DNA of 64,000 nucleotides from Escherichia phage T5, in the sequence record AY587007.1; one strand, given 5' to 3'. The translations under genes and the position numbers were made by a program. Below the pieces are notes generated by a model. It ran no database searches, was not told where the DNA came from, and was given only the letters and a program-made list of their open reading frames with translations. This document shows, in pieces, positions 30,433 to 41,424 of this stretch. Every line of letters starts with the position of its first letter. Position 1 is the first letter of the stretch.

Positions 30433-30517
30433 AAGGAACAGAAGGAGTTGAACCTTCACGAGATAGACCATTTATCTCAACCGCTTTTAAGGTATATTTC
30501 TAGGAGTGGATGTTCCT
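30433..30517 (-). other. tRNA-like element without encoded CCA, core not foldable as a cloverleaf
   Basis: perfect 7-bp acceptor pairing and perfect T-arm (GAAGG TTCAACT CCTTC) but no canonical anticodon or D arm. Confidence 0.3.
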
Positions 30518-30568
30518 AGTAAACCTATTCGGCAGTCCCGTCTACCAATTCCGGCATATTCCAAGAAT

Positions 30569-30745
30569 TTTTTATAAACCAGCAGAAGCCTCATTTAAAG
30601 CATCAACAATAGCTTCACGCTGGGTCATTCCATACCCAGTGGAGTCTAGGTGAGGCAAATAGGCTGCCCATCCATTATCTGTTTCATGAAGGCATGCTTT
30701 AAATTTTTTACCGTCCTTCATTGTTACAGTAACTGTTTTGCTCAT
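30569..30745 (-). CDS. small protein (58 aa) with HicB/UPF0150-like pattern
   Basis: ORF below track cut-off with RBS AAGGA; sequence GWAAYLPHLDSTGYGMTQREAIVDALNEA resembles the HicB antitoxin-fold family. Confidence 0.3.
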
Positions 30746-30765
30746 AAGGATTCCTTATAGTTAAT

Positions 30766-30855
30766 TGGAGGAAGGTAATGGAGTCGAACCATCACCGTAT
30801 CACTACAGCGGGCTAGTTTTCAAGACTAGTTGCGTACCACTACGCCCTACCTTCC
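30766..30855 (-). tRNA. tRNA-Ser (anticodon TGA), type II
   Basis: 90 nt, long variable arm, anticodon loop CTTGAAA. Confidence 0.6.
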
Positions 30856-30862
30856 ATTTGTT

Positions 30863-30956
30863 TGGCGGAAAAGATGGGAGTTGAACCCATAAGGCAATAT
30901 TGCTATTACTCAACCGATTTCCAATCGGGTTTAGTCGCCAGTCTATTTGCTTTTCC
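30863..30956 (-). tRNA. type-II-like tRNA, possibly Ser (GGA); fold uncertain
   Basis: 94 nt; perfect acceptor and T-arm; candidate anticodon loop TTGGAAA; D-arm ambiguous; 5' 14 nt overlap the HNH ORF 30943-31527. Confidence 0.3.
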
Positions 30957-31527
30957 GTTGTTCTGTTAATACTTTTGGGCTTAATCCAGTTAGTTTAGTA
31001 TACCTCCTGCGCAAAGTGGACTCTGATACTTCTAACTCTTTAGCTGCCTTAACCCACCCCATTAATAAAACCTTTTCAGTTATGTCGTCTAAAGACAATT
31101 CTGGTTTTATCAACCTTCCTGTAGGTTTTGGCTTACAATTTGTACATGTTACAGATCTCTGAAGCATTAGACTCCCACATAGGGGGCAAGGTACTCTACT
31201 GTCAGACCACCCATTATCTTTATTAGTTTTCCTCTGATGTTCTATTTTTGATAGGACTTGAAGATTATCTTTAGATAGATTCAGTCTATCTCTATCCTTA
31301 TGATCTACCTCTAATTCAGGGTCAAATAGATTATATAAGTCCCCAAATACATGAGAAATAATTCGGTGTATAAGTACAGAGGTTTGTTTACCATTTATCT
31401 GTAATTTTACAGCAGGGTATCCATCAACTATATATCTTGATAAAACTTTATTAGTAAATGTAGAGAACACATCCCCCGCCTCATTTACTAAATACCCTGG
31501 TGCATCTTTTATTGGTACAAACTGCAT
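30943..31527 (-). CDS. HNH homing endonuclease (paralog family A)
   Basis: 194 aa; HRIISHVF ... EVDHKDRDRLNLSKDNL motif. Confidence 0.6.
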   Translation of the reverse strand: MQFVPIKDAPGYLVNEAGDVFSTFTNKVLSRYIVDGYPAVKLQINGKQTSVLIHRIISHVFGDLYNLFDPELEVDHKDRDRLNLSKDNLQVLSKIEHQRKTNKDNGWSDSRVPCPLCGSLMLQRSVTCTNCKPKPTGRLIKPELSLDDITEKVLLMGWVKAAKELEVSESTLRRRYTKLTGLSPKVLTEQRKSK

Positions 31528-31544
31528 ACATAAATCCTATGAGT

Positions 31545-31629
31545 TGGTGGGGCTAGGGAGACTCGAACTCCCACGCATTTAAGCTACGGAATCTAAGGCC
31601 GTATTGTCTACCAGTTCCAGCATAGCCCC
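31545..31629 (-). tRNA. tRNA-Leu (anticodon TAG), type II
   Basis: 85 nt, variable arm present, anticodon loop CTTAGAT. Confidence 0.55.
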
Positions 31630-31634
31630 GAATT

Positions 31635-31709
31635 TGGTGGACAAAGAGGGACTCGAACCCTCCCTACCAGATTGCAAGTCTGGTGTGCTCCCGCTGACAC
31701 TATTCGCCC
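31635..31709 (-). tRNA. tRNA-Ala (anticodon TGC)
   Basis: clean cloverleaf, two G-U pairs in acceptor stem. Confidence 0.65.
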
Positions 31710-31947
31710 AAATTATTTAGTTTACTAAGGCTATTAGCTCGGCGTAACTACAGCACCTTCGCTTCAAGCGGAAGGAACCGCGTCATCTCGCAAACCCAAT
31801 ACACTATTCAGTTGCCGCTGAATCTAGTGGACTAATCTAGAACTTCTCCCAAATCGTAGGGATCGTGCTTTTTGGCAGCCAGTCCTAGGTCGAGCTAATA
31901 CCTTAGTGAACTATGATGGGGATTTCTCCTCATCAATTTATATAAAT

Positions 31948-31976
31948 ATTATAACAAGAAATTAAGCATTAAGCAA
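31948..31976 (-). promoter_or_regulatory. T5-type early promoter, -35 TTGCTT, 17 bp, -10 TATAAT
   Basis: hexamers on minus strand; would transcribe the downstream tRNA block. Confidence 0.55.
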
Positions 31977-32001
31977 CTGCGTTTTTGAAATTTCTTGGAC
32001 T

Positions 32002-32075
32002 TGGTACTCGGTGATAGAATCGAACTATCACAACCGCCGTGTAAAGGCGGGGTTCTCCCATTATACTAACCGAGC
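32002..32075 (-). tRNA. tRNA-Val (anticodon TAC)
   Basis: cloverleaf with perfect anticodon stem CCGCC/GGCGG. Confidence 0.6.
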
Positions 32076-32082
32076 AAAAATT

Positions 32083-32160
32083 TGGTGGGTTGCACAGGAC
32101 TCGAACCTGTAACCTATGGTTTAAAAGACCAGTGCTCTAAACCAGTTGAGCTAGCAACCC
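32083..32160 (-). tRNA. tRNA-Lys (anticodon TTT)
   Basis: clean cloverleaf, one mismatch closing the anticodon stem. Confidence 0.65.
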
Positions 32161-32328
32161 TTAGTAACCATTATATACTTCTTTAATAGTATGGACTTTC
32201 AAATAAAGGTGATTAGTACTAAACTCCGCCATTACTTCTTTTTCATTTTTTCCATAATGTGCAAGTAAGGATTTTGATGTATTCTTACCTAAACGTTTGT
32301 CACTTACTACTAATCGAAATACTTTCAT
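32161..32328 (-). CDS. small hypothetical protein (55 aa)
   Basis: ORF below track cut-off with RBS AGAGGA, wedged between two tRNA genes. Confidence 0.3.
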   Translation of the reverse strand: MKVFRLVVSDKRLGKNTSKSLLAHYGKNEKEVMAEFSTNHLYLKVHTIKEVYNGY

Positions 32329-32348
32329 TTCGAAATCCTCTATTAAAA

Positions 32349-32426
32349 TGGAAGCGGGTGCAGGAATCGAACCTACCTCTTTCTAGCTTATGAGACTAGC
32401 GATCTCTACCAGAGATCTAACCCGCA
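32349..32426 (-). tRNA. tRNA with anticodon CAT (Met, or Ile if lysidine-modified)
   Basis: cloverleaf with palindromic D-stem GATC; position 1:72 is U-U. Confidence 0.55.
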
Positions 32427-32432
32427 ATTGTT

Positions 32433-32509
32433 TGGTCTCCAATGAAGGACTCGAACCTTCAACCCCACCGCCCCAAACGGTGTACTCTAGCCAATTGAGC
32501 TAATCGGAG
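32433..32509 (-). tRNA. tRNA-Pro (anticodon TGG)
   Basis: clean cloverleaf. Confidence 0.7.
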
Positions 32510-32704
32510 AAAATTATTTCTTCAGCCACAACATGCTTAATCCTAGCATTGTAAAGCCTGTACTTAATCCTATTACCTTTTCTATCATAGAAAAGTTATC
32601 TATGTTAAATCCTACTATTACTATAGGGATAACCCAAGTACACATGAATACTGATGCAATTTTATACTTCACTTAGCTTTCCTTCTCTTCACTTTATAAG
32701 ATAT

Positions 32705-32733
32705 ATTATACAGAGAATTAAGCATAATAGCAA
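32705..32733 (-). promoter_or_regulatory. T5-type early promoter, -35 TTGCTA, 17 bp, -10 TATAAT
   Basis: hexamers on minus strand. Confidence 0.55.
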
Positions 32734-32863
32734 CTACATTTTTCATAAATTTACTTATTGTGTAGGCCACCTGGAGGCTACCAACCCCACGGCTGACAAA
32801 GAAGTTTGCGAGACTTCTCTTAAAAGCCAGAATAGACCCGCCGATCTATCGGAACCTACATAA

Positions 32864-33125
32864 TAAGTAAACTTTATAGTGTCATCCTAGACAGGATTCG
32901 AACCTGCTATCACTTGTGCGGACTTACGAGAACCATTCTTTCACTCGAATCGAACGAGCTTCTGCCCTCGCCAAGTTGGTTTCCCCATCAACCACGCTAG
33001 AATGTTAGATTGTTTTCAGTGCAAGAGTCCGAGTCTTGGACACGACCGCTTCGCAAGTACATAGGCAGCTTATCATGAGTCAGCACTTCCGAATTGCTAG
33101 CTCCGTGTTCTGCACTGAAATTTTA
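32864..33125 (-). other. non-coding stretch with two tRNA T-arm-like motifs but no foldable tRNA
   Basis: RNA-sense GCAGG TTCGAAT CCTGT and GCTCG TTCGATT CGAGT present; no matching acceptor or anticodon arms found. Confidence 0.3.
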
Positions 33126-33473
33126 TTAGTTTAACCGTAAAGTATTATCTACTTCACCATTAATTGTTCGGCACTCCTCTGGGATTGCCGGAGTGGCCTT
33201 GTATTCCCACCACTCAGCACCATCATATTCCCCACGTTCTAGCCAAGTTCCGTCGGCAAACCATACATTACCATAAAGTAATTGTCCACCGTATCCAGAA
33301 TCATATTCAAAGTCTAGGTTATCAAGAAAATCCTCAATATCTTCTTCTGTATAACCTAAAGGTAATACCCAAACTTTTTTATCCCCATAATACCCGAATT
33401 CTATTTTAATACACTTAACTTCAGAATTAGTATTTTTTAAGGCAAGTAACAGCTCTTCTTTGGCATTACGCAT
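33126..33473 (-). CDS. hypothetical acidic protein
   Basis: start trimmed to ATG 33473 so the CDS does not run through tRNA-Asp; 115 aa. Confidence 0.45.
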   Translation of the reverse strand: MRNAKEELLLALKNTNSEVKCIKIEFGYYGDKKVWVLPLGYTEEDIEDFLDNLDFEYDSGYGGQLLYGNVWFADGTWLERGEYDGAEWWEYKATPAIPEECRTINGEVDNTLRLN

Positions 33474-33498
33474 AGTATATTCCCATACTGAATTAATT

Positions 33499-33575
33499 TG
33501 GCGCGACCGATGGGATTTGAACCCACATTCTCTCCCGTGACAGGGGAGTACCATTACCAAGCCAGCCCCGGTCGC
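33499..33575 (-). tRNA. tRNA-Asp (anticodon GTC)
   Basis: cloverleaf with anticodon stem CTCCC/GGGAG. Confidence 0.65.
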
Positions 33576-33584
33576 ATAATTTAT

Positions 33585-33770
33585 TTACTCAGCTTTGAGT
33601 TTTTCAATAGCTGCATTAAGTTCTTTAAGAAACTCTTTTCGTACATTAAGACGATTGAGACTTACTAGTATATCATGTTTAAGCTCTTCGATGTATTTCT
33701 TCTCAACTTCAATATTGTTGATAGTGCTATCACGATGAACTTCTAGCTGCGCAATCACATTCTTGGACAT
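33585..33770 (-). CDS. small coiled-coil protein
   Basis: 61-aa ORF. Confidence 0.35.
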   Translation of the reverse strand: MSKNVIAQLEVHRDSTINNIEVEKKYIEELKHDILVSLNRLNVRKEFLKELNAAIEKLKAE

Positions 33771-33872
33771 GCTTGTTTCCTCAGTTATTAATGAAAATGG
33801 TATCTGTGGCTGAATTCGATGTCAGCAATGATAGCTGGTTGGCTACCGGTTTACTTAACTCTACACAGAATT

Positions 33873-33950
33873 TGGCGGTTCCTGCTGGATTCGAACCAGC
33901 AACCCTCAACTTAACAAGATGCCGCTCTAACCAATTAGAGCTAAGGAACC
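33873..33950 (-). tRNA. tRNA-Asn (anticodon GTT)
   Basis: perfect acceptor, D- and T-arms; anticodon stem has two non-canonical pairs. Confidence 0.5.
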
Positions 33951-34445
33951 ATATAAGTCAGAACTAGAGTTAATACGTTCTAGATATTTACTAAGATCTC
34001 TAGAATTTATACTAAACCACTCATGTTCTTTTAAATCTTTGAAATACTGGTGAATTAGTTTTTCACCTTTTCGTTTGTCAAACCAAAAAGACCAATGCTC
34101 TAACTTATAATCCCTATAAGGGGAATAAGTCTGATATTGAGCTAATCTCTCCTTTGGATTTTGACTCATACCTATTTTATACTGATTTTTCCATGCAGGA
34201 TTACTAATACAGTATACAAAACCTTCAGAAATAGGAAGTTTATTTTCCTGCTTAAACTTTATAAAGGAAAGTGCAGCAAGTTTTCTCGAATACATAGTAT
34301 TTGTATTCTTTTTGGTATTACCATTGGTTCCTGAAAGATTTATATATTCTTCCATAAATCTTTGGATTAGTTCTGCGGTTATATAGAAGGGCTCATTAGT
34401 AACAACGCCTTTCTTTACCAAACTATCAAAAACTTTTGTATGCAC
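33927..34445 (-). CDS. GIY-YIG-like homing endonuclease
   Basis: 172 aa with GFVYCISNP ... YKIGMS ... R motif; last 8 codons lie inside tRNA-Asn. Confidence 0.45.
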   Translation of the reverse strand: MHTKVFDSLVKKGVVTNEPFYITAELIQRFMEEYINLSGTNGNTKKNTNTMYSRKLAALSFIKFKQENKLPISEGFVYCISNPAWKNQYKIGMSQNPKERLAQYQTYSPYRDYKLEHWSFWFDKRKGEKLIHQYFKDLKEHEWFSINSRDLSKYLERINSSSDLYGSLALIG

Positions 34446-34466
34446 TACTTCTTTCCTTTAGTAATT

Positions 34467-34542
34467 TGGACGACCGCATGAGATTTGAACTCACATAAAA
34501 AGGATTTGCAATCCTTCGCCTAAGCCATTCAGCCAACGGTCG
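34467..34542 (-). tRNA. tRNA-Cys (anticodon GCA)
   Basis: cloverleaf with perfect anticodon stem AAGGA/TCCTT. Confidence 0.6.
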
Positions 34543-34547
34543 ATTTA

Positions 34548-34676
34548 TTATCTTTCATAATATGTAGCTACATGGTCGGAACCACAATTACCACACACTT
34601 TCTTACCTGTTTTAGAGTAGTAATCTTGATCACCACATTCATAACAGATACATAATTCTTTTTCTTGTTCTGTCAT
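34548..34676 (-). CDS. small zinc-ribbon protein (42 aa)
   Basis: ORF below track cut-off with RBS GGAGAA and CICYEC ... CGNC motifs. Confidence 0.35.
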   Translation of the reverse strand: MTEQEKELCICYECGDQDYYSKTGKKVCGNCGSDHVATYYER

Positions 34677-34705
34677 ATTGCTTCTCCAGTTCAATTTATG
34701 TAATT

Positions 34706-34734
34706 ATTATATAGAACTTTTGGAAACTAAGCAA
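34706..34734 (-). promoter_or_regulatory. T5-type early promoter, -35 TTGCTT, 17 bp, -10 TATAAT
   Basis: hexamers on minus strand. Confidence 0.5.
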
Positions 34735-34999
34735 CTACATTTTTTAAGAATTTGATGCCTTTCTTTTTCTTCTTATATTTCCACGTTAATGGATTCTGTC
34801 GATTATAAACGCTTGAGATCTTTGTCTCGTCAAAGTTCTTCAATATCATGTAATCACAGGATAATTGTTCTAGTGGAATGTGGTCACCGCCAAAAGCGTA
34901 TATATAAGGCCGTTGACTAACACGATAATGATAGACTTTGTTAATTCTACGTTTCAGCGATTTATCCGCACAGTAAATAAAGAAGTTTTCAGGATGCAT
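34727..34999 (-). CDS. hypothetical protein
   Basis: start moved to ATG 34999 with RBS AAGGAG; 90 aa. Confidence 0.4.
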   Translation of the reverse strand: MHPENFFIYCADKSLKRRINKVYHYRVSQRPYIYAFGGDHIPLEQLSCDYMILKNFDETKISSVYNRQNPLTWKYKKKKKGIKFLKNVVA

Positions 35000-35016
35000 C
35001 AGCATCTCCTTCAATT

Positions 35017-35091
35017 TGGTGCACCCTGTTCGAATTGAACGAACCTCTCAAGCTCTTCAGGCAAGCGCTAATCCATCTCAGCTAAAGGTGC
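35017..35091 (-). tRNA. tRNA-Phe (anticodon GAA)
   Basis: good acceptor, D- and T-arms; anticodon loop CTGAAGA; two U-U pairs in anticodon stem. Confidence 0.45.
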
Positions 35092-35097
35092 AAATTT

Positions 35098-35168
35098 TGG
35101 CAGAGGTAAAGGTATTCGAAACCTTTTCATGGGTTTTGGAGGCCCATTTGCAACCTATGCGTACCCCA
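35098..35168 (-). tRNA. tRNA-Trp (anticodon CCA), truncated D-arm
   Basis: 71 nt; anticodon loop CTCCAAA; perfect T-arm; D-arm folds as 3-bp stem with 5-nt loop; 1:72 is U-U. Confidence 0.4.
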
Positions 35169-35177
35169 ATTGTTAAT

Positions 35178-35254
35178 TGGCGTCCTGTGTGGGGATCGAA
35201 CCCGCAAACCCTACCTTGAAAGGGTAGTGACTTTACCAGTTTGTCTAACAGGAC
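35178..35254 (-). tRNA. tRNA-Glu (anticodon TTC)
   Basis: perfect acceptor and anticodon stems. Confidence 0.65.
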
Positions 35255-35260
35255 TTAAAT

Positions 35261-35348
35261 TGGTAGGGGAGGATGGAGTCGAACCACCCGAGTCGCAATG
35301 ACAACTAATTTACAGTCAGCTCTGCTACCACTTACAGAATACTCCCCC
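35261..35348 (-). tRNA. tRNA-Tyr (anticodon GTA), type II
   Basis: 88 nt with variable stem-loop; anticodon loop CTGTAAA. Confidence 0.6.
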
Positions 35349-35472
35349 ATATTTGAATGAAAAGTAAGTCGGTTAAACTCAAGGTGGAATATTTCAGGAT
35401 TTCCTGACTTTACCCCTCAAAGTAACTCGCTTAGTTACTTCTCATTCAGATATGTTTCCAAATTAGATAACT

Positions 35473-35501
35473 ATTATACCAAGTTTTAAGGCACTGAGCA
35501 A
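35473..35501 (-). promoter_or_regulatory. T5-type early promoter, -35 TTGCTC, 17 bp, -10 TATAAT
   Basis: hexamers on minus strand; -35 sits inside an 11-bp-stem hairpin (35492-35533). Confidence 0.5.
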
Positions 35502-35537
35502 GTCAAATTTTGAAGAACTTGCTCAGTGCTGTATTAG

Positions 35538-35813
35538 TTAGTCGAACTTAGGAGTGACAGATAAGGAGAACGGAAGTTCAAAAACTTCTTCACCCTCATT
35601 ACTAACAGTAACTACACGACCTTTAAGTTCAGACATTGAAATATCAATATCAGCTTTTGCATCTGGAGCCATGCCAGCTTCAACACATTTAGCTTTAACT
35701 TCCGGCAAGAGTTCTACATCGTAGAAATAAAGCCATTCAATCTCACCTTCCCAGCCTTCCCAGGATTTACAGATTGCACTTTCAATACCAGTTGCTACAA
35801 CACTATTTTGCAT
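35538..35813 (-). CDS. hypothetical acidic protein
   Basis: 91-aa ORF. Confidence 0.45.
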   Translation of the reverse strand: MQNSVVATGIESAICKSWEGWEGEIEWLYFYDVELLPEVKAKCVEAGMAPDAKADIDISMSELKGRVVTVSNEGEEVFELPFSLSVTPKFD

Positions 35814-35843
35814 TCGTTAACTCCTTCATCAATTTATACAACT

Positions 35844-35873
35844 ATTATATCAGAAATTTAAAGCAAAAGGCAA
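35844..35873 (-). promoter_or_regulatory. T5-type early promoter, -35 TTGCCT, 18 bp, -10 TATAAT
   Basis: hexamers on minus strand. Confidence 0.45.
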
Positions 35874-35903
35874 GTACATTTTTAAAAATTCTATTCGGAG
35901 GAG

Positions 35904-36110
35904 CTAAACTCCAGATTCTTCTGCCAAGTCTAGGCTAATAAGAGTTATAGCCATAATTGCTGCACCGTGTTCTTTTTCTCCGGTGTTTTTAGCAGAGTCT
36001 ATAATATCCTTAATCTGTTCGTAATAACTTTTTACTTCTTGTTCAATGCCTGCCTCGGCTATCATGCCTTTAGCCATGAATCGTTGCATGGTAATTTCAG
36101 GATTAGCCAT
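35904..36110 (-). CDS. hypothetical protein
   Basis: 68-aa ORF; start overlaps upstream stop as ATGGCTAA. Confidence 0.45.
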   Translation of the reverse strand: MANPEITMQRFMAKGMIAEAGIEQEVKSYYEQIKDIIDSAKNTGEKEHGAAIMAITLISLDLAEESGV

Positions 36111-36270
36111 GTTGTTTCTCCAGTTTCATTTTTAATAGTTTACAGATGAAATCAACGTCTTCATCCGTGCCTAAGTCTCTATCCTCAAGGGTCGCCTTGA
36201 AGTTTTTCGTCAATTCCATGAGGATGACTTCCCTAGAACGACGTGTTGGGGGCGGAGGAGGTCTATACAT
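36103..36270 (-). CDS. small proline-rich protein (55 aa)
   Basis: ORF below track cut-off with RBS AAGGA; stop overlaps downstream start. Confidence 0.3.
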   Translation of the reverse strand: MYRPPPPPTRRSREVILMELTKNFKATLEDRDLGTDEDVDFICKLLKMKLEKQHG

Positions 36271-36303
36271 CTTAATTCCTTAATTTGGTAGGAACTATAT
36301 CAT

Positions 36304-36984
36304 CTATGTTTTCTTAATACTTTTAGGATCTTTCCCCGTCAGGGACTTATACCTTTTCCTTAATCCAGTATCAGACAATCCTAGTTCTTTAGAGGCACGA
36401 ATCCAGGAATATTTAGATACCCAGTACTCTATTTGCTCCACAGTAATATCTGGATTTATAGTTATCCCTTTAGGAGTACATGATTTACAGTGTGTTGCTC
36501 TTGAGCTAATTTCGCAGTGACAAATAGCACACGTATTTACAGTCCTTTCTGTATACCTGCCAATATTTTTGCCTGCATGAGTAGGCGTTAGTGCATGGCA
36601 ATTTGGACATAGGAGGGCTAAGTTATCCCATTCATTATTATAGTGGTTTCCATCCTTGTGTTCGAGTTCTAAAGGAATTGGTTTGTCTAACCAACTTTCT
36701 AAGCCGCAACTCTCACACTTATGTGGTTTTAGCCCCTCGTTAAGAATTTTATTCTTTAGTTTATAGGAAGAAATAGGGCTGCCGTTATATAAATATTCTG
36801 TTGCAGACTTATATTTATTATCATACTGCCTATTCGTAGGAATAACTACTATTCCTAGTTTTCCTAAATATGCTTCCAAAGTGTTCGAGGAGCAGGATAG
36901 CATTCTTGCTATCTCTGCCTTAGATTTTCCCTGAGCTATCCACTGAGCTATTTCTTCCTTTCTATCTAGTATATCAGTTCTCAT
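36304..36984 (-). CDS. HNH homing endonuclease with N-terminal HTH-like region
   Basis: 226 aa; LELEHKDGNHYNNEWDNLALLCPNCH motif; C-terminus shared with paralogs. Confidence 0.6.
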   Translation of the reverse strand: MRTDILDRKEEIAQWIAQGKSKAEIARMLSCSSNTLEAYLGKLGIVVIPTNRQYDNKYKSATEYLYNGSPISSYKLKNKILNEGLKPHKCESCGLESWLDKPIPLELEHKDGNHYNNEWDNLALLCPNCHALTPTHAGKNIGRYTERTVNTCAICHCEISSRATHCKSCTPKGITINPDITVEQIEYWVSKYSWIRASKELGLSDTGLRKRYKSLTGKDPKSIKKT

Positions 36985-36997
36985 AATTTATGACTTT

Positions 36998-37075
36998 CTA
37001 CTTAAGTTGGTGGCTCCCCGAGGATTCGAACCTACGTACCTTCCAGTTATGAGCTGGGTGCTCATACCATATGAG
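36998..37075 (-). tRNA. tRNA with anticodon CAT (Met/fMet/Ile2 not resolved)
   Basis: good acceptor, D- and anticodon arms; T-stem only 3 bp. Confidence 0.5.
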
Positions 37076-37081
37076 CTTGAG

Positions 37082-37170
37082 AACCAGAATTTGGCGGAAG
37101 AAGTGGGAATCGAACCCACAAGGCTATATTTCAAACCGACAGATTAGCAATCTGCTGCAATACCGTTATG
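37082..37170 (-). tRNA. tRNA-Ser (anticodon GCT), type II
   Basis: 89 nt; anticodon loop TTGCTAA; long variable arm; perfect T-arm. Confidence 0.6.
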
Positions 37171-37184
37171 CTATTCTTCCGAAT

Positions 37185-37213
37185 TTATAAATATATTATA
37201 TTAGAAATTTAGC
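37185..37213 (-). promoter_or_regulatory. T5-type early promoter, -35 TTGCTA, 17 bp, -10 TATAAT
   Basis: hexamers on minus strand, positioned to transcribe the Ser/Met tRNAs. Confidence 0.55.
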
Positions 37214-37719
37214 TTCATAGCAAGAAAATTTTTCAAGTTTTCGGTAGACATCTCATCCACATCTACAGGGGAAACAAACCCATTTAACTGTCTAGCAAAC
37301 TTTTCGCCAGCAGGATCATTATCCCCAACAGCTACCAATTTAAAAGGTAGTAATTTCAATTGCTTTAATAGCGCTTTTCCTGGAGAAGAACCCAACATTG
37401 CCAGGGCTGGATAACCAGCGTTATGTAACGCAACTGCCTTAAATACAGATTCAGCAATCAATACTACTTTTTCATCTCCATTGAGAGTTTCTAGTCCCCA
37501 TACACACTGTGTAGTAGAATAAGTAAAATATCTAGCTTCAAGGGGGCACTTACCATGACCTTTTGGAGCAGAAGGATTATAAGTCTGATAGCCTCTCAAC
37601 ATCCCAGAGAAGTCATACAAGGGGACTGTTAGCCATCCTTCCGGGCTTAACCAGCAATGATATTTATCTGTATCAAACCCTCTAGATAAGAGATGTTCTG
37701 TTAGTTCATCAACAGTCAT
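37201..37719 (-). CDS. Toprim-domain protein
   Basis: 172 aa from ATG 37719 (RBS GAGAGAGGA); conserved Glu in VVLIAESVF and DxD in AVGDNDPAG as in Toprim folds. Confidence 0.4.
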   Translation of the reverse strand: MTVDELTEHLLSRGFDTDKYHCWLSPEGWLTVPLYDFSGMLRGYQTYNPSAPKGHGKCPLEARYFTYSTTQCVWGLETLNGDEKVVLIAESVFKAVALHNAGYPALAMLGSSPGKALLKQLKLLPFKLVAVGDNDPAGEKFARQLNGFVSPVDVDEMSTENLKNFLAMKLNF

Positions 37720-37749
37720 ATTAGATTCCTCTCTCAAATTTATAAATAT

Positions 37750-37778
37750 ATTATACAGAGAATTTAGCATTCAAGCAA
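37750..37778 (-). promoter_or_regulatory. T5-type early promoter, -35 TTGCTT, 17 bp, -10 TATAAT
   Basis: hexamers on minus strand. Confidence 0.55.
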
Positions 37779-37894
37779 TTGAATTTTTTAACTTTTTAGA
37801 GGAAAATCACAGGATGCTTACAGGTAGCAGGTAAGTGGTCAGGACCGAAATTTGTGACCCCACTAAAAATCTGGGGGCAATTTTTAAAGACCCC

Positions 37895-37923
37895 TTGACA
37901 TTTTCTCCTGGGTAGTGTAAAGT
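37895..37923 (+). promoter_or_regulatory. plus-strand sigma70-like promoter, -35 TTGACA, 17 bp, -10 TAAAGT
   Basis: consensus -35; -10 keeps the T, A and final T positions; lies upstream of the plus-strand island. Confidence 0.4.
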
Positions 37924-37985
37924 ATATGTTATGGATGAGTGATCAAAGAGACACACATTTTCTATATACTAGGAGGTGTCAAAAA

Positions 37986-38393
37986 ATGACAGAAGAAGTA
38001 GCTAATAGTCCTGAGACCGTCGCTAGCGTTGCAGCAGAACTGCACCGTCACGAGGAATCAGATAAGAAAAAGTGGGAGAAGGTCAGAGCCTACGAAGAAG
38101 AACATTGTGAACACGATGATAAAGATGATGAACATTGTCATAAATATGGAAAACATAAAATGCAAGAACCAGTAAACGTATTTACTAACGGCTTCCCTGG
38201 CATGGGTGCATTCCCGGCTAACGCAGGTGCTTTCGGTGGTGAAGGTATGGGCCTATTCGGAGCTATCCTAATCGGTGCTCTATTAACAGGCGGATTTGGT
38301 GGTTTTGGTAGTTTTGTCGCGGTGCTGGCGTTGCCGCTGAAGGAACTGCTGTGGACGCGATCCTTTCTAACCAAGATACTGCAAGTATTCTAG
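37986..38393 (+). CDS. His/acidic N-terminus, Gly-rich hydrophobic C-terminus protein
   Basis: start at ATG 37986 with RBS AGGAGGT; segments HCEHDDKDDEHCH and GFPGMGAFPANAGAFGGEGMGLFGAILIGALLTGGFGGFG. Confidence 0.5.
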   Translation: MTEEVANSPETVASVAAELHRHEESDKKKWEKVRAYEEEHCEHDDKDDEHCHKYGKHKMQEPVNVFTNGFPGMGAFPANAGAFGGEGMGLFGAILIGALLTGGFGGFGSFVAVLALPLKELLWTRSFLTKILQVF

Positions 38394-38950
38394 CTGCAAT
38401 CAACACTACTCGTACAGAAGCTAACCAGGACACTGGGGCTGTTCTAAGCGCAGTAAACGGTGTGGGAGCTGCTCAAGCTGCTAGCACTCAGCAAGTTCTG
38501 ACTACTATCTACGGTACAGGTGCTAATCTGTCAAACCAGATCTGTGCTGAAACTCGTAACGTTATTCAGGGTCAGTTCGATCTTTCTCGTCAGATGGATC
38601 AATCTTTCGCTGCTAACCAGATCGCACGTGCTCAAGATAAGTTTGACTCTGCTCAGATTGCTTTCCAGCAGTCTATTCAGACTAACAACCAGTTTGCCGC
38701 TGTTCAGGCTCAGATGTGTGCTAACCAGAATGCTATAGAACGTCAGCTTGCTGAATGTTGCTGTGAGCTTCAGACTGCGATCGCCGGTGTAACTACTGCG
38801 CGTATCCAGGACGAACTGAATGAATGCCGTCTGCGCGAAGCAATCGCTGCAGGTAGCGGTGCAAATGGTCAGGTAATCAACCAAATCGCTGTAAGTCTTG
38901 GTGCTATCACTCAGACTCTGGCTGGTCTGCAGGCTAAACTGCCGGCTTAA
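38351..38950 (+). CDS. Ala/Gln-rich low-complexity protein
   Basis: GTG start with RBS AAGGA; overlaps the previous gene by 43 nt in the -1 frame; contains CCC triplet AECCCE. Confidence 0.4.
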   Translation: MDAILSNQDTASILAAINTTRTEANQDTGAVLSAVNGVGAAQAASTQQVLTTIYGTGANLSNQICAETRNVIQGQFDLSRQMDQSFAANQIARAQDKFDSAQIAFQQSIQTNNQFAAVQAQMCANQNAIERQLAECCCELQTAIAGVTTARIQDELNECRLREAIAAGSGANGQVINQIAVSLGAITQTLAGLQAKLPA

Positions 38951-38971
38951 AATTAAGGGGAGGAGTCCATT

Positions 38972-39388
38972 ATGAGTAAATATGGTTTTGTAAACAACGG
39001 ATTTAATCAACAAATGGGCTCCCAGCAGCCCGTTCCGGGTCTGGATAATCCTTACCTACAACAGTTGCAACAGCGTTTAGCAGAAGCGCAACAGATGCAG
39101 CAACAACTCCAGCAAAACCCTGGAAGTGTGAGTCCTATGCAAATGATGCAGCAAATGAGCGGGCAGTCGCAAATGCCTCAACAAATGCAGCAACAGGTGC
39201 CTCAGCAGCAAGTTCAGCAACAAACCCAACAACCGCAGGTTTCTGCGGAAGGACAGGCAGTACTAGCCCTTTTCGAAGATTTCGCAAAGACAGAGGATGG
39301 GAAACAGCTTGTATCACTTATGGGTAAGTTTAATAGCTTCTGCCAAAGCCAAGTTGCAAAAGCTCAAAATGGTGATAATAGCTCCTAA
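38972..39388 (+). CDS. Gln-rich low-complexity protein
   Basis: 138 aa with strong RBS AAGGGGAGGAG; long Q-rich runs. Confidence 0.5.
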   Translation: MSKYGFVNNGFNQQMGSQQPVPGLDNPYLQQLQQRLAEAQQMQQQLQQNPGSVSPMQMMQQMSGQSQMPQQMQQQVPQQQVQQQTQQPQVSAEGQAVLALFEDFAKTEDGKQLVSLMGKFNSFCQSQVAKAQNGDNSS

Positions 39389-39397
39389 GGAGGAATT

Positions 39398-39592
39398 ATG
39401 TGTTGCAGAAAATCTGTTTCGTGCTGCCCAATGCCTGTAGCACGTTGTTGCTCTCCAGCAATGTTTACACAAATACCGGCGTTCAATCCCTTTGCCTTTA
39501 AGCCTACTCTTATCCTGCCCCCTAGAGTAGATTTTCAGTCAAGATTGGCCTCCCGTATGGGTGGTTGCTGTAATAAGAGTATATGGTTCTAA
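39398..39592 (+). CDS. Cys-rich small protein
   Basis: 64 aa with RBS AAGGAGG; CC doublets (MCC, SCC, RCC, GCC). Confidence 0.5.
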   Translation: MCCRKSVSCCPMPVARCCSPAMFTQIPAFNPFAFKPTLILPPRVDFQSRLASRMGGCCNKSIWF

Positions 39593-39609
39593 AGAACCAA
39601 TAATAAAAA

Positions 39610-39641
39610 CCCCTAGTCGAAAGACTTAGGGGTTTTCTTTT
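39610..39641 (+). terminator. rho-independent terminator
   Basis: hairpin CCCCTAGTC-GAAA-GACTTAGGGG followed by TTTTCTTTT. Confidence 0.6.
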
Positions 39642-39688
39642 ATCTTAAATACAGAAAAGCCCTGCGCTCTCCAGGGAACACAGGGCTT
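39641..39688 (-). terminator. probable rho-independent terminator for the SPFH gene
   Basis: 8-bp stem AAGCCCTG/CAGGGCTT, then U-rich run on the minus-strand RNA. Confidence 0.4.
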
Positions 39689-39711
39689 ACTTCGAATATT
39701 ACATGTGGGTA

Positions 39712-40659
39712 TTACTTGTTACGCATATCCATAATCATCTGGCCATCGTAACCAGTGCCAACTACTGTTTGCGGTACACCACCTTGATATTTCTGAGCAC
39801 GAATCATTTCAACTTCTAGTTGTTTCCAGCGAATCATCTCAGGAGTAATAGTACGTTGCAGAGCGGCGTTAGCTTCGGCTTCTTTCTTAGCTGCGTACAG
39901 TTTAGCATCTGCATCACGTTCGTTTGCAATAGCCTGGTTGTTACGAGCTTCACGATCTGCTTCTGCTTGTTTAACCTTCTGCTGTGCTTCTTGTTCAACA
40001 CGAGCCAATTCAGCTTTCGCAGCATTAACTTGTTCTTCACGAACTTTGGTATTCTGTACCTGTTCCATGATTACAGGCGGCAAAGTAATATCCTGAAGGA
40101 ACACTTGCTTAACTGTGTAACCATAAGGGCGTGCGTACTCTTCAACTTCCTGCTGAATTGCAGTTTGCAATTGTGCTTGAATTTTAGCATCAAACAAATC
40201 TTGTGCTTTAGGTACAGACTTACCAAACTCACGAATAGTAGATAGTAATTTCTCAGTTACATACTTATCTAGAGCCTGATCCTGAGTACCTGCGTTAATA
40301 CGGTTAATCGGTGCCTTAGAACCATCAAACTGCAACATAACAGTCAGGTCAACAGTGGATTTAAACTTATCCTGGCTGGGAACCTGAAGTTTATCTAATT
40401 TTACAGCAATATCTTTTGTACTAAAAGTATCGAAAGATGCAAATGGGTTTACAAGATGGAAACCAGGTAATACTGGGTTAGGATCTACTTTACCCAGAAA
40501 TGTTTGGGTTTTAACCGTACCATCAGAAACAATAGTATATGAATTAAAAGCTAGGATTAAACCTGCTAAACCAACCACAGCACCAATACCCCAACGTTTA
40601 ATAGTGCGAACTACTTTTTGCTCAGAAGTCAGTTCTTTCATATTTTTAGTATTAAACAT
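39712..40659 (-). CDS. SPFH / band-7 (prohibitin-stomatin-like) membrane protein
   Basis: 315 aa; N-terminal transmembrane helix, SPFH-like core, long Ala/Glu/Gln-rich coiled-coil tail; RBS AAGGAA. Confidence 0.6.
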   Translation of the reverse strand: MFNTKNMKELTSEQKVVRTIKRWGIGAVVGLAGLILAFNSYTIVSDGTVKTQTFLGKVDPNPVLPGFHLVNPFASFDTFSTKDIAVKLDKLQVPSQDKFKSTVDLTVMLQFDGSKAPINRINAGTQDQALDKYVTEKLLSTIREFGKSVPKAQDLFDAKIQAQLQTAIQQEVEEYARPYGYTVKQVFLQDITLPPVIMEQVQNTKVREEQVNAAKAELARVEQEAQQKVKQAEADREARNNQAIANERDADAKLYAAKKEAEANAALQRTITPEMIRWKQLEVEMIRAQKYQGGVPQTVVGTGYDGQMIMDMRNK

Positions 40660-40693
40660 ATATTTCCTTTGTTTTAGTTACAGTTAATAAAGT

Positions 40694-40768
40694 TGGCCGA
40701 GGTGACAGGATTCGAACCTGCATAAAGGAATTTAGAAGACTCCTGCCTCTCCCTTAGACTACACCCCG
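40694..40768 (-). tRNA. tRNA-Arg (anticodon TCT)
   Basis: clean cloverleaf; anticodon stem GGAGT/ATTCC; CCA encoded. Confidence 0.65.
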
Positions 40769-40885
40769 TTTAAGTATTTTTAAGAACTCTCGTAAAAACT
40801 CTTAAAAATACAGACGATACCGGGAGAGTCATAAGTCTCACTCATTAAGTATTTCAAGACAAAATACAGTAACGTCTATTATTTT

Positions 40886-40996
40886 CCAGTTTATGTCAAG
40901 GTGACTATACTTACTTATGCATATAAGGTCGCCATCTGGCAGATTACTCATAAGTCTTATAAAGTAAGTATTCCAGTTTAAGTCAAGGTGACTTAG
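40886..40996. repeat. two copies of CCAGTTTA(T/A)GTCAAGGTGACT ~87 bp apart in a non-coding stretch
   Basis: direct repeat read from sequence at about 40886-40908 and 40973-40995. Confidence 0.5.
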
Positions 40997-41352
40997 TGGT
41001 TATACACTGCATATACGAGTGCTCGGTTAGGTTAGGGTCATGACTCCCTACCTTTTGCTGCCCTCAACAGGAGTTATCGCGCGTTTACCTGTATGTTGTG
41101 CACCATTAGTCACGACTTTCACGTGATCCTTTCCCACTTTGTTGGTAGCTTGAAAAACTACTCCGATATGGAGGAAAAACTTCACTACCTAGAATACCTT
41201 CTAAAGTTCTTCTTTAGCCTGGACATAGTTAAATCGTAATAAAACTATTCAGCAGACTGGTTGGTTAGTCTGGAACCAACTACCGCGTGGTTTAGGCAGT
41301 GCGCAACTAACCTCGGAAGCTTTTACGTTAAAAGCACCAGTTATCCAGTTCT

Positions 41353-41424
41353 TACCGACCGTAGGATTCGAACCTACATCTTCCACCAGTTACGGCTTGA
41401 TAATACCGTTTATACTAGGTCGGC
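41353..41424 (-). other. tRNA-like element without CCA, no canonical anticodon arm
   Basis: good acceptor pairing and perfect T-arm (GTAGG TTCGAAT CCTAC); middle does not fold as D plus anticodon arms. Confidence 0.3.

What the first reader, a model, noticed from the sequence alone, without database searches (positions are those of the whole stretch)
30433..41424. Three tRNA-like elements with good acceptor and T arms but no foldable core
Elements at 30433-30517, 32864-33125 and 41353-41424 each have an RNA-sense GGTTCGAAT-type T-loop and, in two cases, a perfectly paired acceptor stem, yet lack CCA and a canonical anticodon arm. They may be decayed tRNA genes, processing signals, or a non-tRNA structured RNA family.
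Basis: seen in the sequence. Interest (0 to 1): 0.45.

Follow-up and report, generated by a model that had tools for sequence, protein, structure and literature searches.

The report
Known tRNA-like stable RNAs of phage T5
The three elements are real, conserved tRNA-shaped RNAs of bacteriophage T5 that keep a tRNA's upper half but have other structures where the anticodon should be; two are already annotated as tRNA-like stable RNAs (the third sits inside annotated RNAX), and their function is still unknown.

Summary
The window is phage T5 (99.9% to AY543070). Element 1 lies in the annotated gene rna1, element 2 covers rna2 (both "tRNA-like stable RNA with unknown functions"), and element 3 lies in rnaX. 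The finding is therefore a rediscovery.

The T-loops are real: 19 motif hits against 0.15 expected, all on the minus strand. CCA is absent, although all 25 T5 tRNAs encode it. No element has a canonical anticodon arm. The boundaries of elements 1 and 2 are wrong, and the "perfect" acceptor stem of element 1 uses the wrong 5' partner.

Alignments with relatives show compensatory base changes in all three, so they are selected structures, not decayed genes.
- **RNA1** is a class-II tRNA shape with a roughly 60-nt extended anticodon arm.
- **RNA2** is a cloverleaf whose anticodon loop is replaced by a 55-nt three-way-junction module. A 20-nt stretch of this module (one variable base) is invariant in T5-like and T4-like phages, and it has no Rfam match.
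- **Element 3** is a tRNA-like domain clamped by a covarying 12-bp leader-trailer helix inside RNAX.

Most likely they are natural tRNA-scaffolded non-coding RNAs. What the modules bind is unknown. Published viable T5 deletion mutants lack RNA1 or RNA2.

The parts
30431..30563 (-). RNA1 tRNA-like core. GenBank rna1 corresponds to window 30422-30565. Layout: acceptor, D-like arm, extended anticodon arm, variable-arm hairpin, T arm.
   Evidence: GenBank annotation. RNAalifold consensus on 13 distinct homologs. Pair counts: 35 pairs, 99.8% paired, 11 compensatory. The MFE of the T5 sequence gives the same fold. Rfam tRNA model 24.0 bits over 30433-30563.
30557..30563 (-). RNA1 acceptor 5' strand UGGAAUA. 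It pairs with UGUUCCU at 30434-30440, with a U1.U72 mismatch.
   Evidence: Four of the five pairs counted change on both sides in relatives, e.g. GAUGCCG/CGGGGUU in Sugarlandvirus.
30479..30537 (-). RNA1 extended 'anticodon' arm of three stacked helices, capped by the invariant 8-nt loop ACAUCCAC (30506-30513).
Evidence: Helices 27-32/81-86, 38-40/72-74 and 46-50/59-63 of alignment A3 carry 2, 1 and 3 compensatory pairs.
30460..30478 (-). RNA1 variable-arm hairpin GAGAUA-AAUGGUC-UAUCUC.
   Evidence: 100% paired, with one A-U to U-A swap.
30441..30457 (-). RNA1 T arm GAAGG-UUCAACU-CCUUC.
32880..33004 (-). RNA2 (GenBank rna2), 125 nt. Acceptor AUUCUAG/CUAGGAU (32997-33003 with 32884-32890), D arm UGGU/ACCA, 5-bp anticodon-type stem ACUUG/CAAGU, inserted module, T arm 32891-32907. 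No CCA; the 3' end reads G-ACA.
   Evidence: Sequences of 28 distinct homologs. RNAalifold. Helix check in four lineages with wholly different stem sequences.
32917..32971 (-). RNA2 module that replaces the anticodon loop. It has an internal loop GCGA/GCA, helix GGGC/GUCC, a T-loop-like hairpin CUCG-UUCGAUU-CGAG, a junction UGAAAGA and a mini-hairpin AUG-GUUCN-CGU. The run UGAAAGAAUGGUUCNCGUAA is invariant apart from N.
   Evidence: Invariant columns. Covariation in the hairpin (3 pairs) and in GGGY/RUCC (C-G to U-A). The same core occurs in Serratia phage Kamaji, in Acinetobacter T4-like phages and in metagenomic contigs.
33005..33125 (-). Structured spacer between ORF T5.067 and RNA2, closed by the long-range stem UUCAGUGCA.../...UGCACUGAA. 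It is not part of RNA2.
   Evidence: MFE -32.6 kcal/mol, z = -1.9. 97-100% identical in Tequintavirus and absent from Epseptimavirus, where a tRNA precedes RNA2.
41353..41424 (-). Element 3, a tRNA-like domain of RNAX (GenBank rnaX corresponds to window 40769-41487). Acceptor GCCGACC/GGUCGGU, D arm and T arm are present. The anticodon arm is reduced to 3 bp plus the hexaloop GUAACU.
   Evidence: Rfam tRNA 38.3 bits with the anticodon arm skipped. ARAGORN calls it 'tRNA-Ser(act)'. Pair counts on 15 homologs: 8 compensatory pairs.
41431..41444 (-). Leader strand of a 12-bp helix that clamps element 3. It pairs with the trailer at 41336-41349.
   Evidence: 100% paired in 10 distinct homologs, with 5 compensatory pairs.
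41336..41349 (-). Trailer strand of the clamp helix.
41319..41335 (-). Conserved hairpin GCUUUUA-ACG-UAAAAGC directly after the clamp helix.
   Evidence: Five pairs, two with compensatory change.
41501..41529 (-). Sigma-70 promoter TTGCTA-17-TATAAT (GenBank promoter P16-17) that drives RNAX. Element 3 starts 63 nt after the annotated 5' end of RNAX (41487).

Best explanation
The three elements are distinct, evolutionarily maintained, tRNA-derived non-coding RNAs of phage T5: RNA1, RNA2 and the 5' domain of RNAX. They are neither decoding tRNAs nor decaying genes.

Each keeps the tRNA upper half (acceptor stem, T arm and a D-type arm). In place of the anticodon stem-loop each carries its own conserved structure.
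- RNA1 has a roughly 60-nt three-helix arm ending in the loop ACAUCCAC, plus a class-II-type variable arm.
- RNA2 has a 55-nt three-way-junction module.
- Element 3 has a short stem with a hexaloop, or a longer hairpin in Klebsiella phages.

Proposed mechanism: RNA1 and RNA2 are natural 'tRNA-scaffold' RNAs. They are transcribed inside the polycistronic tRNA/mRNA transcripts. The host tRNA-maturation enzymes recognise the upper half and cut them out as compact, nuclease-resistant molecules. The module that replaces the anticodon loop is the working end and binds a conserved host or phage partner. Element 3 is held in a covarying leader-trailer helix and stays part of the 719-nt stable RNAX as a tRNA-mimicking 5' domain.

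Shown here: identity with the annotated stable RNAs, the folds, the covariation, the absence of CCA and anticodon, and the conservation across phage genera (for RNA2, across families).
Inferred: excision by RNase P and 3' trimming, the scaffold role, and the existence of a binding partner.

I put about 0.9 on 'selected tRNA-derived structured RNAs that do not decode', about 0.5 on the scaffold-plus-effector-module mechanism, and at most 0.2 on any specific partner.
For: - Identity: 99.9% to T5 AY543070. rna1 and rna2 are annotated 'tRNA-like stable RNA with unknown functions' and rnaX 'stable RNA with unknown functions'.
- Structure under selection, RNA1: 35 pairs, 99.8% paired, 11 compensatory pairs against 6.5+-1.3 in shuffles and at most 2 in slid controls.
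- Structure under selection, element 3: 8 compensatory pairs in the cloverleaf, and 11 when the clamp helix is included.
- Structure under selection, RNA2: 12 compensatory pairs. Acceptor, D, anticodon-type and T stems have entirely different sequences but stay paired in T5, Kamaji, L006 and L113.
- The inserted modules are the most conserved parts.
- Not decoding tRNAs: no 7-nt anticodon loop in any lineage and no CCA, although 25 of 25 T5 tRNAs have it.
- tRNA origin: the tRNA model aligns RNA1 as a tRNA with a 47-nt insertion in the anticodon loop and a long variable arm. Its upper half is closest to T5 tRNA-Leu, Tyr and Ser.
- Excision is plausible. In several relatives RNA1 and RNA2 sit 4-7 nt after the CCA of a tRNA, as in tandem tRNA arrays, and their flanks are not conserved. 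GenBank gives them discrete ends abutting other stable RNAs.
- Accessory role: viable T5 deletion mutants remove RNA1 (deletion 29191-32442) or RNA2 (deletion 30661-38625) (PMC11464382).
- From my own knowledge, not tested here: engineered chimeras with an insert in the anticodon stem of a tRNA are processed and accumulate stably in E. coli (Ponchon and Dardel 2007).
Against: - No transcript ends, modification, CCA addition or binding partner could be examined here. 'Stable RNA' rests on the GenBank notes only.
- The 1.72 position is mismatched in RNA1 (U.U) and in most element 3 homologs (G.A). This could weaken RNase P or CCA-enzyme recognition.
- The T4-like versions of RNA2 have a shortened or unclear acceptor stem, and one runs into the next tRNA gene. 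The scaffold is therefore not strictly kept everywhere.
- Neither RNA1 nor RNA2 is needed for plaque formation on laboratory E. coli. Cloned fragments of the T5 123 deletion other than fragment 1 (31885-32870) had no effect against the PARIS defence system; by its coordinates RNA1 would lie in one of them.
- The alignments hold few independent lineages (about 4-8), so the covariation statistics are indicative rather than formal.
Confidence: 0.55

Rival explanations
1. They are only processing punctuation. On this view the tRNA-like folds exist to direct RNase P and 3' nucleases to cut the long tRNA/mRNA transcripts and to stabilise neighbouring RNAs, and the excised pieces have no function of their own.
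For: They lie inside dense polycistronic units with small ORFs and tRNAs. Element 3 sits 63 nt after the annotated 5' end of RNAX, at the head of the transcript that ends in tRNA-Arg. tRNA-like punctuation is established in mitochondria (general knowledge).
Against: Punctuation needs only the acceptor and T-arm half. Yet the strongest conservation is in the parts that replace the anticodon loop: a 20-nt stretch (one variable base) shared by T5-like and T4-like phages in RNA2, and the invariant loops ACAUCCAC and AAUGGUC in RNA1. Element 3 is clamped by a covarying leader-trailer helix, which argues for the uncut form being the selected one. Ordinary tRNAs nearby could serve as punctuation.
Confidence: 0.15
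2. They are tRNA-mimic decoys or inhibitors aimed at host tRNA-targeting defence systems or tRNA-handling enzymes. This is a specific version of the effector idea.
For: T5 tRNAs are shown to neutralise tRNA-cleaving defences: tRNA-Lys against PARIS in PMC11464382, and tRNA-Tyr against retron Eco7 as cited in PMC10644984. The elements are dispensable in the laboratory, as counter-defence genes usually are. The neighbouring gene T5.081 is a YqeY-like tRNA-binding-domain protein.
Against: Most known tRNA-targeting defence nucleases recognise the anticodon loop, which these RNAs lack. Only fragment 1 of the T5 123 deletion rescued infection of PARIS cells; the other fragments, one of which should contain RNA1 by its coordinates, had no effect. 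No direct evidence exists.
Confidence: 0.15
3. They are unusual but functional decoding tRNAs, for example a suppressor. The Epseptimavirus homolog of element 3 can be drawn with anticodon UCA and is annotated tRNA-Sec.
For: ARAGORN calls the Epseptimavirus homolog tRNA-SeC(tca) and T5 element 3 tRNA-Ser(act). Element 3 passes the Rfam tRNA threshold.
Against: The family-wide register is a 3-4-bp stem with a 6-nt loop (GUAACU or UUCACC), supported by a C-G to G-C swap. Klebsiella phages have a 22-nt structured insertion there instead. There is no CCA, there are acceptor mismatches at 1.72 and 5.68, and a conserved helix sequesters leader and trailer. RNA1 and RNA2 have no anticodon loop at all.
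Confidence: 0.04
4. They are decaying tRNA pseudogenes left by duplication in a fast-evolving tRNA cluster rich in homing endonucleases.
For: The cluster is mosaic, with several HNH endonuclease genes. GenBank marks one T5 tRNA-Gln as a pseudogene. The upper halves resemble T5 tRNAs.
Against: The elements are conserved in more than 400 phage records each, down to about 74% identity, with compensatory changes in every helix. They carry invariant non-tRNA modules. GenBank describes the products as stable RNAs.
Confidence: 0.03

Closest known systems
Phage T5 / BF23 stable RNAs RNA1, RNA2 and RNAX (GenBank AY543070, AJ604530; Ksenzenko laboratory annotation)
   Same: They are the same loci. Element 1 lies in rna1, element 2 contains rna2, and element 3 lies in rnaX. 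The records already call RNA1 and RNA2 'tRNA-like stable RNA with unknown functions'.
   Different: Nothing differs in the objects themselves. The records carry no structure models, no note that the 5' part of RNAX is tRNA-like, and no function. I could not reach the original papers, so I cannot say how much of the fold models derived here was already published.
Phage T4 species 1 and species 2 RNAs (RNAC, RNAD)
   Same: They are small stable RNAs encoded in a phage tRNA cluster, and their function is still unknown (PMC3014915, PMC9697503). The predicted fold of RNAC is a terminal stem, a long arm, a second hairpin and a canonical T arm (CCGGG-UUCGAAU-CCCGG), which resembles the layout of RNA1.
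   Different: No detectable sequence similarity to RNA1 or RNA2. RNAD encodes a CCA end and the T5 elements do not. The T4-like relatives of RNA2 found here are in Acinetobacter phages, not in T4.
Engineered tRNA-scaffold chimeras (insert placed in the anticodon stem of a tRNA, expressed in E. coli)
   Same: The architecture matches RNA1 and RNA2: an intact acceptor, D and T framework with a foreign structured RNA in place of the anticodon loop. Such chimeras are processed and accumulate stably (my own knowledge of Ponchon and Dardel 2007; not tested here).
   Different: Those are artificial and end in CCA. Here the design is natural, conserved, and lacks an encoded CCA.
tmRNA tRNA-like domain and other tRNA mimics (plant-virus 3' tRNA-like structures, mascRNA, bacterial YrlA Y-RNA-like RNAs)
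   Same: They use a tRNA upper half without an anticodon as a handle for tRNA-recognising enzymes, attached to or embedded in a larger RNA. This is closest to element 3 inside RNAX.
   Different: There is no tag reading frame or pseudoknot set. ARAGORN finds no tmRNA, and Rfam finds no tmRNA or any other non-tRNA family above threshold. There is no conserved G3.U70 alanine identity.
Canonical tRNA (Rfam RF00005)
   Same: Acceptor stem, D-type arm and T arm with GGUUCRAnUCC are present. Element 3 scores 38.3 bits.
   Different: There is no 5-bp/7-nt anticodon arm and no CCA. RNA1 scores 24.0 bits, below threshold, and RNA2 is not matched.

Membership tests
Annotated T5 stable RNAs (rna1, rna2, rnaX of AY543070) | Same genomic locus and strand in phage T5 | tested here: met
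   The window is 99.9% identical to AY543070, and record coordinate = window + 79. rna1 corresponds to window 30422-30565, rna2 to 32880-33004 and rnaX to 40769-41487, all on the minus strand.
Annotated T5 stable RNAs (rna1, rna2, rnaX of AY543070) | Accumulates as a discrete stable RNA in infected cells | not testable with these tools
   Stated in the GenBank notes only. No expression data were available.
Canonical tRNA | 7-bp acceptor stem closing the molecule | tested here: met
   RNA1 has 6 of 7 pairs with covariation. RNA2 has 7 of 7 including one wobble pair. Element 3 has 7 of 7 in T5 including a G.U pair, and 5 of 7 in most relatives.
Canonical tRNA | T arm with 5-bp stem and UUCRAnY loop | tested here: met
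Canonical tRNA | 5-bp anticodon stem with a 7-nt loop (U33 and an anticodon) | tested here: not met
   RNA1 has a 47-nt insertion that folds into a covarying three-helix arm. RNA2 has a 55-nt module. Element 3 has a 3-bp stem with a hexaloop, and the model skips the arm.
Canonical tRNA | 3' CCA, encoded in every T5 tRNA gene | tested here: not met
   25 of 25 T5 tRNAs end in CCA. RNA1 continues ...CCU-UGA, RNA2 ...GAU-GACA and element 3 ...GGU-AAGA. Post-transcriptional addition cannot be tested.
Canonical tRNA | Rfam RF00005 score at or above the gathering threshold of 29 bits | tested here: inconclusive
   Element 3 scores 38.3 bits and passes. RNA1 scores 24.0 bits and fails. RNA2 has no match.
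Decaying tRNA pseudogene | No selection on pairing, with lineage-specific decay | tested here: not met
   Compensatory changes occur in all helices, and the inserted modules are invariant.
tmRNA | tRNA-like domain plus tag reading frame and pseudoknots, detectable by ARAGORN or Rfam | tested here: not met
   ARAGORN reports no tmRNA. The only tmRNA-type Rfam match is a 16.4-bit chance hit elsewhere.
T4 RNAC/RNAD | Sequence homology to T4 rnaC or rnaD | tested here: not met
   No blastn match between the T5 elements and the T4 tRNA region L005 at E<1e-3.
T4 RNAC/RNAD | Small stable RNA of unknown role encoded within a phage tRNA cluster, with a tRNA-type T arm | tested here: met
   This is a likeness in kind, not a demonstrated relationship.

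The most novel reading that the evidence does not exclude
RNA2, and by analogy RNA1 and the RNAX 5' domain, belong to an undescribed class of phage 'tRNA-scaffolded effector RNAs'. Host tRNA enzymes would excise and stabilise them. The module replacing the anticodon loop would bind a highly conserved host or phage factor. For RNA2 this module is a three-way junction with a 20-nt stretch (one variable base) shared by T5-like (Demerecviridae) and T4-like (Straboviridae) phages and absent from Rfam. The partner could be a tRNA-handling enzyme, a tRNA-targeting defence protein, or the phage's own YqeY-like tRNA-binding protein. The effect would be on translation or immunity.
Probability: 0.3. Interest if true: 0.7.

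Novelty: already known. Interest (0 to 1): 0.35.

Why it matters
As a discovery it adds little. T5's tRNA-like stable RNAs are already annotated in the public T5 genome record.

What remains open is their function. The same is true of T4 RNAC and RNAD, whose roles reviews still list as unknown. The comparative results give that question concrete handles:
- defined folds;
- invariant modules to mutate;
- a cross-family RNA2 motif that is not in Rfam;
- a clamp helix showing that element 3 probably acts inside RNAX;
- a candidate protein partner gene next door.

Phage tRNA clusters are now known to counter tRNA-targeting immunity, so anticodon-less tRNA mimics in the same clusters are reasonable candidates for a related accessory role.

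Tried and rejected
- **Ordinary tRNAs missed by hand folding:** rejected (ARAGORN; Rfam at gathering and at lax thresholds).
tested on 13 homologs and rejected.
- **Opal-suppressor or Sec tRNA reading of element 3:** this comes from ARAGORN calls in Epseptimavirus. It is rejected because the family register is a hexaloop and Klebsiella phages carry a hairpin insertion there.
- **tmRNA, YrlA or other Rfam families:** no matches.
- **RNA2 as an intron-containing tRNA:** removing the module leaves a 7-nt loop NC(G/U)A-GCA with C, not the canonical U, at position 33. Not pursued.
- **Alanine identity (G3.U70) in RNA2:** present only in Kamaji, so not conserved.
- **Pairing of the RNA2 core with the 23S sarcin-ricin loop:** considered by eye. 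Dropped because the variable N falls inside the would-be duplex.
- **Homology of RNA1 or RNA2 with T4 rnaC or rnaD:** none by blastn.
- **Metagenome and genome-wide scans with an 18-position core pattern (17 specified bases):** 112 hits, of which only 11 had the adjacent hairpin. The rest look like chance matches. No bacterial chromosomal home was found.
- **YqeY-like gene as a constant neighbour of RNA2-like elements:** true in T5 (next to element 3) and in L006, but not within 8-10 kb in four other loci. Such genes are common in tRNA-rich large phages, so this stays a lead only.
- **Literature searches:** no open-access paper on the structure or function of T5 RNA1, RNA2 or RNAX.
- **MAFFT alignment of RNA2:** it misplaces the 5' stems of the divergent members. 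Acceptor and D stems were therefore checked by explicit segmentation. The L113 segmentation double-counts one G.

Full report
**What the window is.** A 12-kb query around the finding matches Escherichia phage T5 (AY543070) at 99.9% over its full length. Record coordinates equal window coordinates plus 79. The finding lies in the T5 tRNA region, where every RNA gene is on the minus strand.
- ARAGORN finds 23 tRNA genes and Rfam 21 at gathering threshold. GenBank annotates 25.
- The T5 record also annotates several 'stable RNAs'.
- Element 1 (30433-30517) lies inside rna1 (window 30422-30565). Element 2 (32864-33125) contains rna2 (window 32880-33004).
- Element 3 (41353-41424) lies inside rnaX (window 40769-41487), 'stable RNA with unknown functions'.
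- The finding is therefore a rediscovery of annotated features.

- The T-loop motif GGTTCRANTCC occurs 19 times in the window against 0.15 expected. All hits are on the minus strand between 27973 and 41374. Sixteen are in tRNAs and three in these elements.
- None of the three is followed by CCA, whereas all 25 T5 tRNA genes, and RNA3, encode it.
- None has a canonical anticodon arm.
- With lax filters, the Rfam tRNA model scores element 3 at 38.3 bits but skips the whole anticodon arm as a local end.
- The same model scores RNA1 at 24.0 bits (E = 0.0046, below the threshold of 29) by placing a 47-nt insertion in the anticodon loop.
- It does not match RNA2 at all.

**RNA1 (element 1).** Homologs occur in 492 phage records, down to 74% identity: Escherichia, Salmonella and Klebsiella phages of the genera Tequintavirus, Epseptimavirus and Sugarlandvirus.
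- I aligned thirteen distinct sequences. RNAalifold gives a 35-pair consensus in which 99.8% of cells pair.
- Eleven pairs show changes on both sides, against 6.5+-1.3 in column shuffles (0 of 500 reach the observed value) and at most 2 when partners are slid.
- The minimum-free-energy fold of the T5 sequence alone is the same.
- The layout is that of a class-II tRNA:
  - acceptor UGGAAUA/UGUUCCU, with position 1.72 mismatched;
  - a D-type arm whose loop AAUUGGUAGA resembles that of leucine tRNAs (my reading);
  - a roughly 60-nt arm of three stacked helices capped by the invariant loop ACAUCCAC;
  - a variable-arm hairpin GAGAUA-AAUGGUC-UAUCUC;
  - the T arm.
- In Klebsiella phages the acceptor is GAUGCCG/CGGGGUU. 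It differs at almost every position yet still pairs.
In relatives it pairs in 69% of cells, like slid controls, and one pair is broken in 12 of 13 sequences.
- AGGAACA comprises the last 5' bases of the top helix and the first bases of its terminal loop.
- The upper half of RNA1 is most similar to T5 tRNA-Leu, Tyr and Ser.

**RNA2 (element 2).**
- RNA2 proper is 32880-33004. It has acceptor AUUCUAG/CUAGGAU, D arm UGGU/ACCA, a 5-bp anticodon-type stem ACUUG/CAAGU and T arm GCAGG-UUCGAAU-CCUGU.
- A 55-nt module replaces the anticodon loop.
- RNAalifold on eleven sequences folds the module as follows:
  - a helix GGGY/RUCC, with a C-G to U-A swap between lineages;
  - a T-loop-like hairpin (CUCG-UUCGAUU-CGAG) with three covarying pairs;
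  - a junction UGAAAGA;
  - a mini-hairpin AUG-GUUCN-CGU with the only variable base, N, in its loop.
- The stretch UGAAAGAAUGGUUCNCGUAA is invariant in every member.
- Members with the full cloverleaf but entirely different stem sequences are Serratia phage Kamaji (GGGUACU/GGUAUCC), a 164-kb viral contig L006 (GACUUUG/CAAAGUC) and a metagenomic contig L113 (UACUGAC/GUCAGUA).
- Shorter versions with the same core lie in the tRNA clusters of T4-like Acinetobacter phages. These include phage 133, between tRNA-Gly and tRNA-Cys, 14 records in all, and two related contigs.
- RNA2 is thus a structured RNA family shared by Demerecviridae and Straboviridae. It has no Rfam counterpart.
- Scans of metagenomes and of 185,579 genomes with the core pattern gave mostly chance hits and no bacterial chromosomal home.
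- The upstream 121 nt (33005-33125) fold into a long-range stem (z = -1.9). They are nearly identical within Tequintavirus and absent from Epseptimavirus, where a tRNA precedes RNA2 by 7 nt. This is a separate spacer.

**Element 3.** Fifteen distinct homologs support the acceptor, D and T stems. Eight pairs have compensatory change, against 3.5+-1.1 in shuffles (0 of 500).
- The 'anticodon arm' is non-canonical in every lineage:
  - 3 bp plus hexaloop GUAACU in T5 and most relatives, with a C-G to G-C swap in one Klebsiella phage;
  - 4 bp plus UUCACC in some Epseptimaviruses, which ARAGORN and some annotators call tRNA-Sec(UCA);
  - a 22-nt insertion forming an extra hairpin in Sugarlandvirus.
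- The flanks are as conserved as the element. RNAalifold and pair counts show that the leader (41431-41444) pairs with the trailer (41336-41349) in a 12-bp helix. This helix is 100% paired in ten homologs, with five compensatory pairs, and is followed by another covarying hairpin.
- A consensus promoter lies at 41501-41529.
- GenBank annotates RNAX as a stable RNA running from its annotated 5' end (just downstream of the promoter) to the 5' end of tRNA-Arg.
- Element 3 is therefore best read as a tRNA-mimicking 5' domain that stays inside RNAX, not as an excised tRNA.

**How they most likely work.**
- Shown: these are three different tRNA-derived RNAs under purifying selection. They cannot decode, having no anticodon loop and no encoded CCA.
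- Inferred: the retained upper half is what RNase P, 3'-processing enzymes, the CCA enzyme and T-loop modification enzymes recognise.
- RNA1 and RNA2 would then be cut out of the polycistronic transcripts and accumulate as compact RNAs, as engineered tRNA-scaffold chimeras do in E. coli (my own knowledge). The conserved inserted modules would be the functional ends.
- Supporting this, in several relatives RNA1 and RNA2 follow a tRNA's CCA by 4-7 nt, their outer flanks are not conserved, and the modules are the most conserved parts.
- The partner is unknown.
- The elements are accessory. Viable T5 deletion mutants remove RNA1 (deletion 29191-32442) or RNA2 (deletion 30661-38625). Only the fragment carrying tRNA-Pro, fMet, Lys and Val rescued infection of PARIS cells; the other cloned fragments of the T5 123 deletion had no effect (PMC11464382).
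- Rivals are pure processing punctuation, decoys for tRNA-targeting defences, odd decoding tRNAs, and pseudogenes. They are weighed in the rival list. The last two are contradicted by the data.

**Comparison with what is known.**
- The elements are identical to T5 RNA1, RNA2 and RNAX.
- The nearest analogues are T4 RNAC and RNAD, small stable RNAs of the T4 tRNA cluster whose roles are still unknown (PMC3014915, PMC9697503).
- The predicted RNAC fold resembles the layout of RNA1, but there is no sequence similarity.
- They work like other tRNA upper-half mimics (the tmRNA tRNA-like domain, viral tRNA-like structures, mascRNA, YrlA). They meet none of those families' defining features.

**A lead noticed on the way.**
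- The gene directly upstream of the RNAX promoter, T5.081 (41538-41972), belongs to PHROG 1460, 'tRNA amidotransferase' (E = 4e-41).
- It is homologous (phmmer E = 3e-6) to an ORF of contig L006 that matches Pfam YqeY (E = 1e-15) and solved YqeY structures. That ORF lies about 230 nt upstream of L006's RNA2-like element.
- The YqeY domain raises tRNA affinity in Deinococcus GlnRS (PMC1865053).
- The adjacency is not general, and such genes are common in tRNA-rich phages. It is a candidate partner, nothing more.

**Verdict.** They are already annotated, and their function is still unknown. Interest is moderate. The finding is not new, but the conserved modules, especially the cross-family RNA2 core, make an old open question testable.

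Noticed in passing
window 41538-41972 (-), and L006 3005-3508 (+): T5.081, directly upstream of the RNAX promoter and element 3, is a YqeY-like (GatB tail domain, tRNA-binding) protein: PHROG 1460, E = 4e-41. A homolog in contig L006 (Pfam YqeY, E = 1e-15) lies about 230 nt upstream of that contig's RNA2-like element. It is a possible protein partner of the tRNA-like RNAs. The adjacency is not seen in four other loci.
   Followed up: partly
It has acceptor UCUGUG/CACAGA, a hairpin with a 6-nt loop, a degenerate T loop AUCGAAUU and an encoded ACCA end. Fold z-score -3.0. There is no Rfam hit.
   Followed up: partly
window 30315-30421 and 30205-30310 (-): RNAI and RNAIII, stable RNAs lying between RNA1 and tRNA-His (RNAI abuts RNA1, RNAIII abuts tRNA-His, and 4 nt separate the two). 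RNAI closes with the stem GGCUC/GAGCC followed by GCCA, an acceptor-like end with CCA but no T loop. RNAIII is strongly structured (z = -2.85).
   Followed up: partly
window 29098-29173, 35098-35168, 37008-37085 (-): ARAGORN misses three tRNAs annotated in GenBank: Gly-UCC, Trp-CCA and Ile2-CAU. Rfam finds the last at 38.2 bits and gives only weak matches for the other two (26.7 bits to the Sec model, 20.8 bits to tRNA). All three end in CCA.
   Followed up: partly
window 33005-33125 (-): A 121-nt spacer between ORF T5.067 and RNA2 folds into a long-range stem-closed structure (z = -1.9). It is 97-100% conserved within Tequintavirus only and is not annotated in GenBank.
   Followed up: partly
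window 32759-32861 (-): RNAIV, just downstream of RNA2, folds into a multi-branched structure closed by a terminal stem (-37.7 kcal/mol, z = -2.85). It is conserved at 89-98% in Tequintavirus and Epseptimavirus.
   Followed up: no
L003 1464-1568 (Acinetobacter phage 133); L023; L168: The T4-like versions of RNA2 keep the core module and T arm but have a short or unclear acceptor stem. In phage 133 the element runs straight into the 5' end of tRNA-Cys, so it may be processed differently there.
   Followed up: partly
L033 192-265, L034 192-265: In some Epseptimaviruses the element 3 homolog is annotated tRNA-Sec or tRNA-OTHER (ARAGORN anticodon UCA). The family-wide hexaloop register suggests an annotation artefact rather than an opal-suppressor tRNA.
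   Followed up: yes
window 42666-42983 (-) and 33927-34445 (-): T5.084 matches the Pfam cyclic-phosphate processing receiver domain cREC_REC (E = 3e-15). T5.069 carries T5orf172/MUG113 domains. Neither function was followed up.
   Followed up: no
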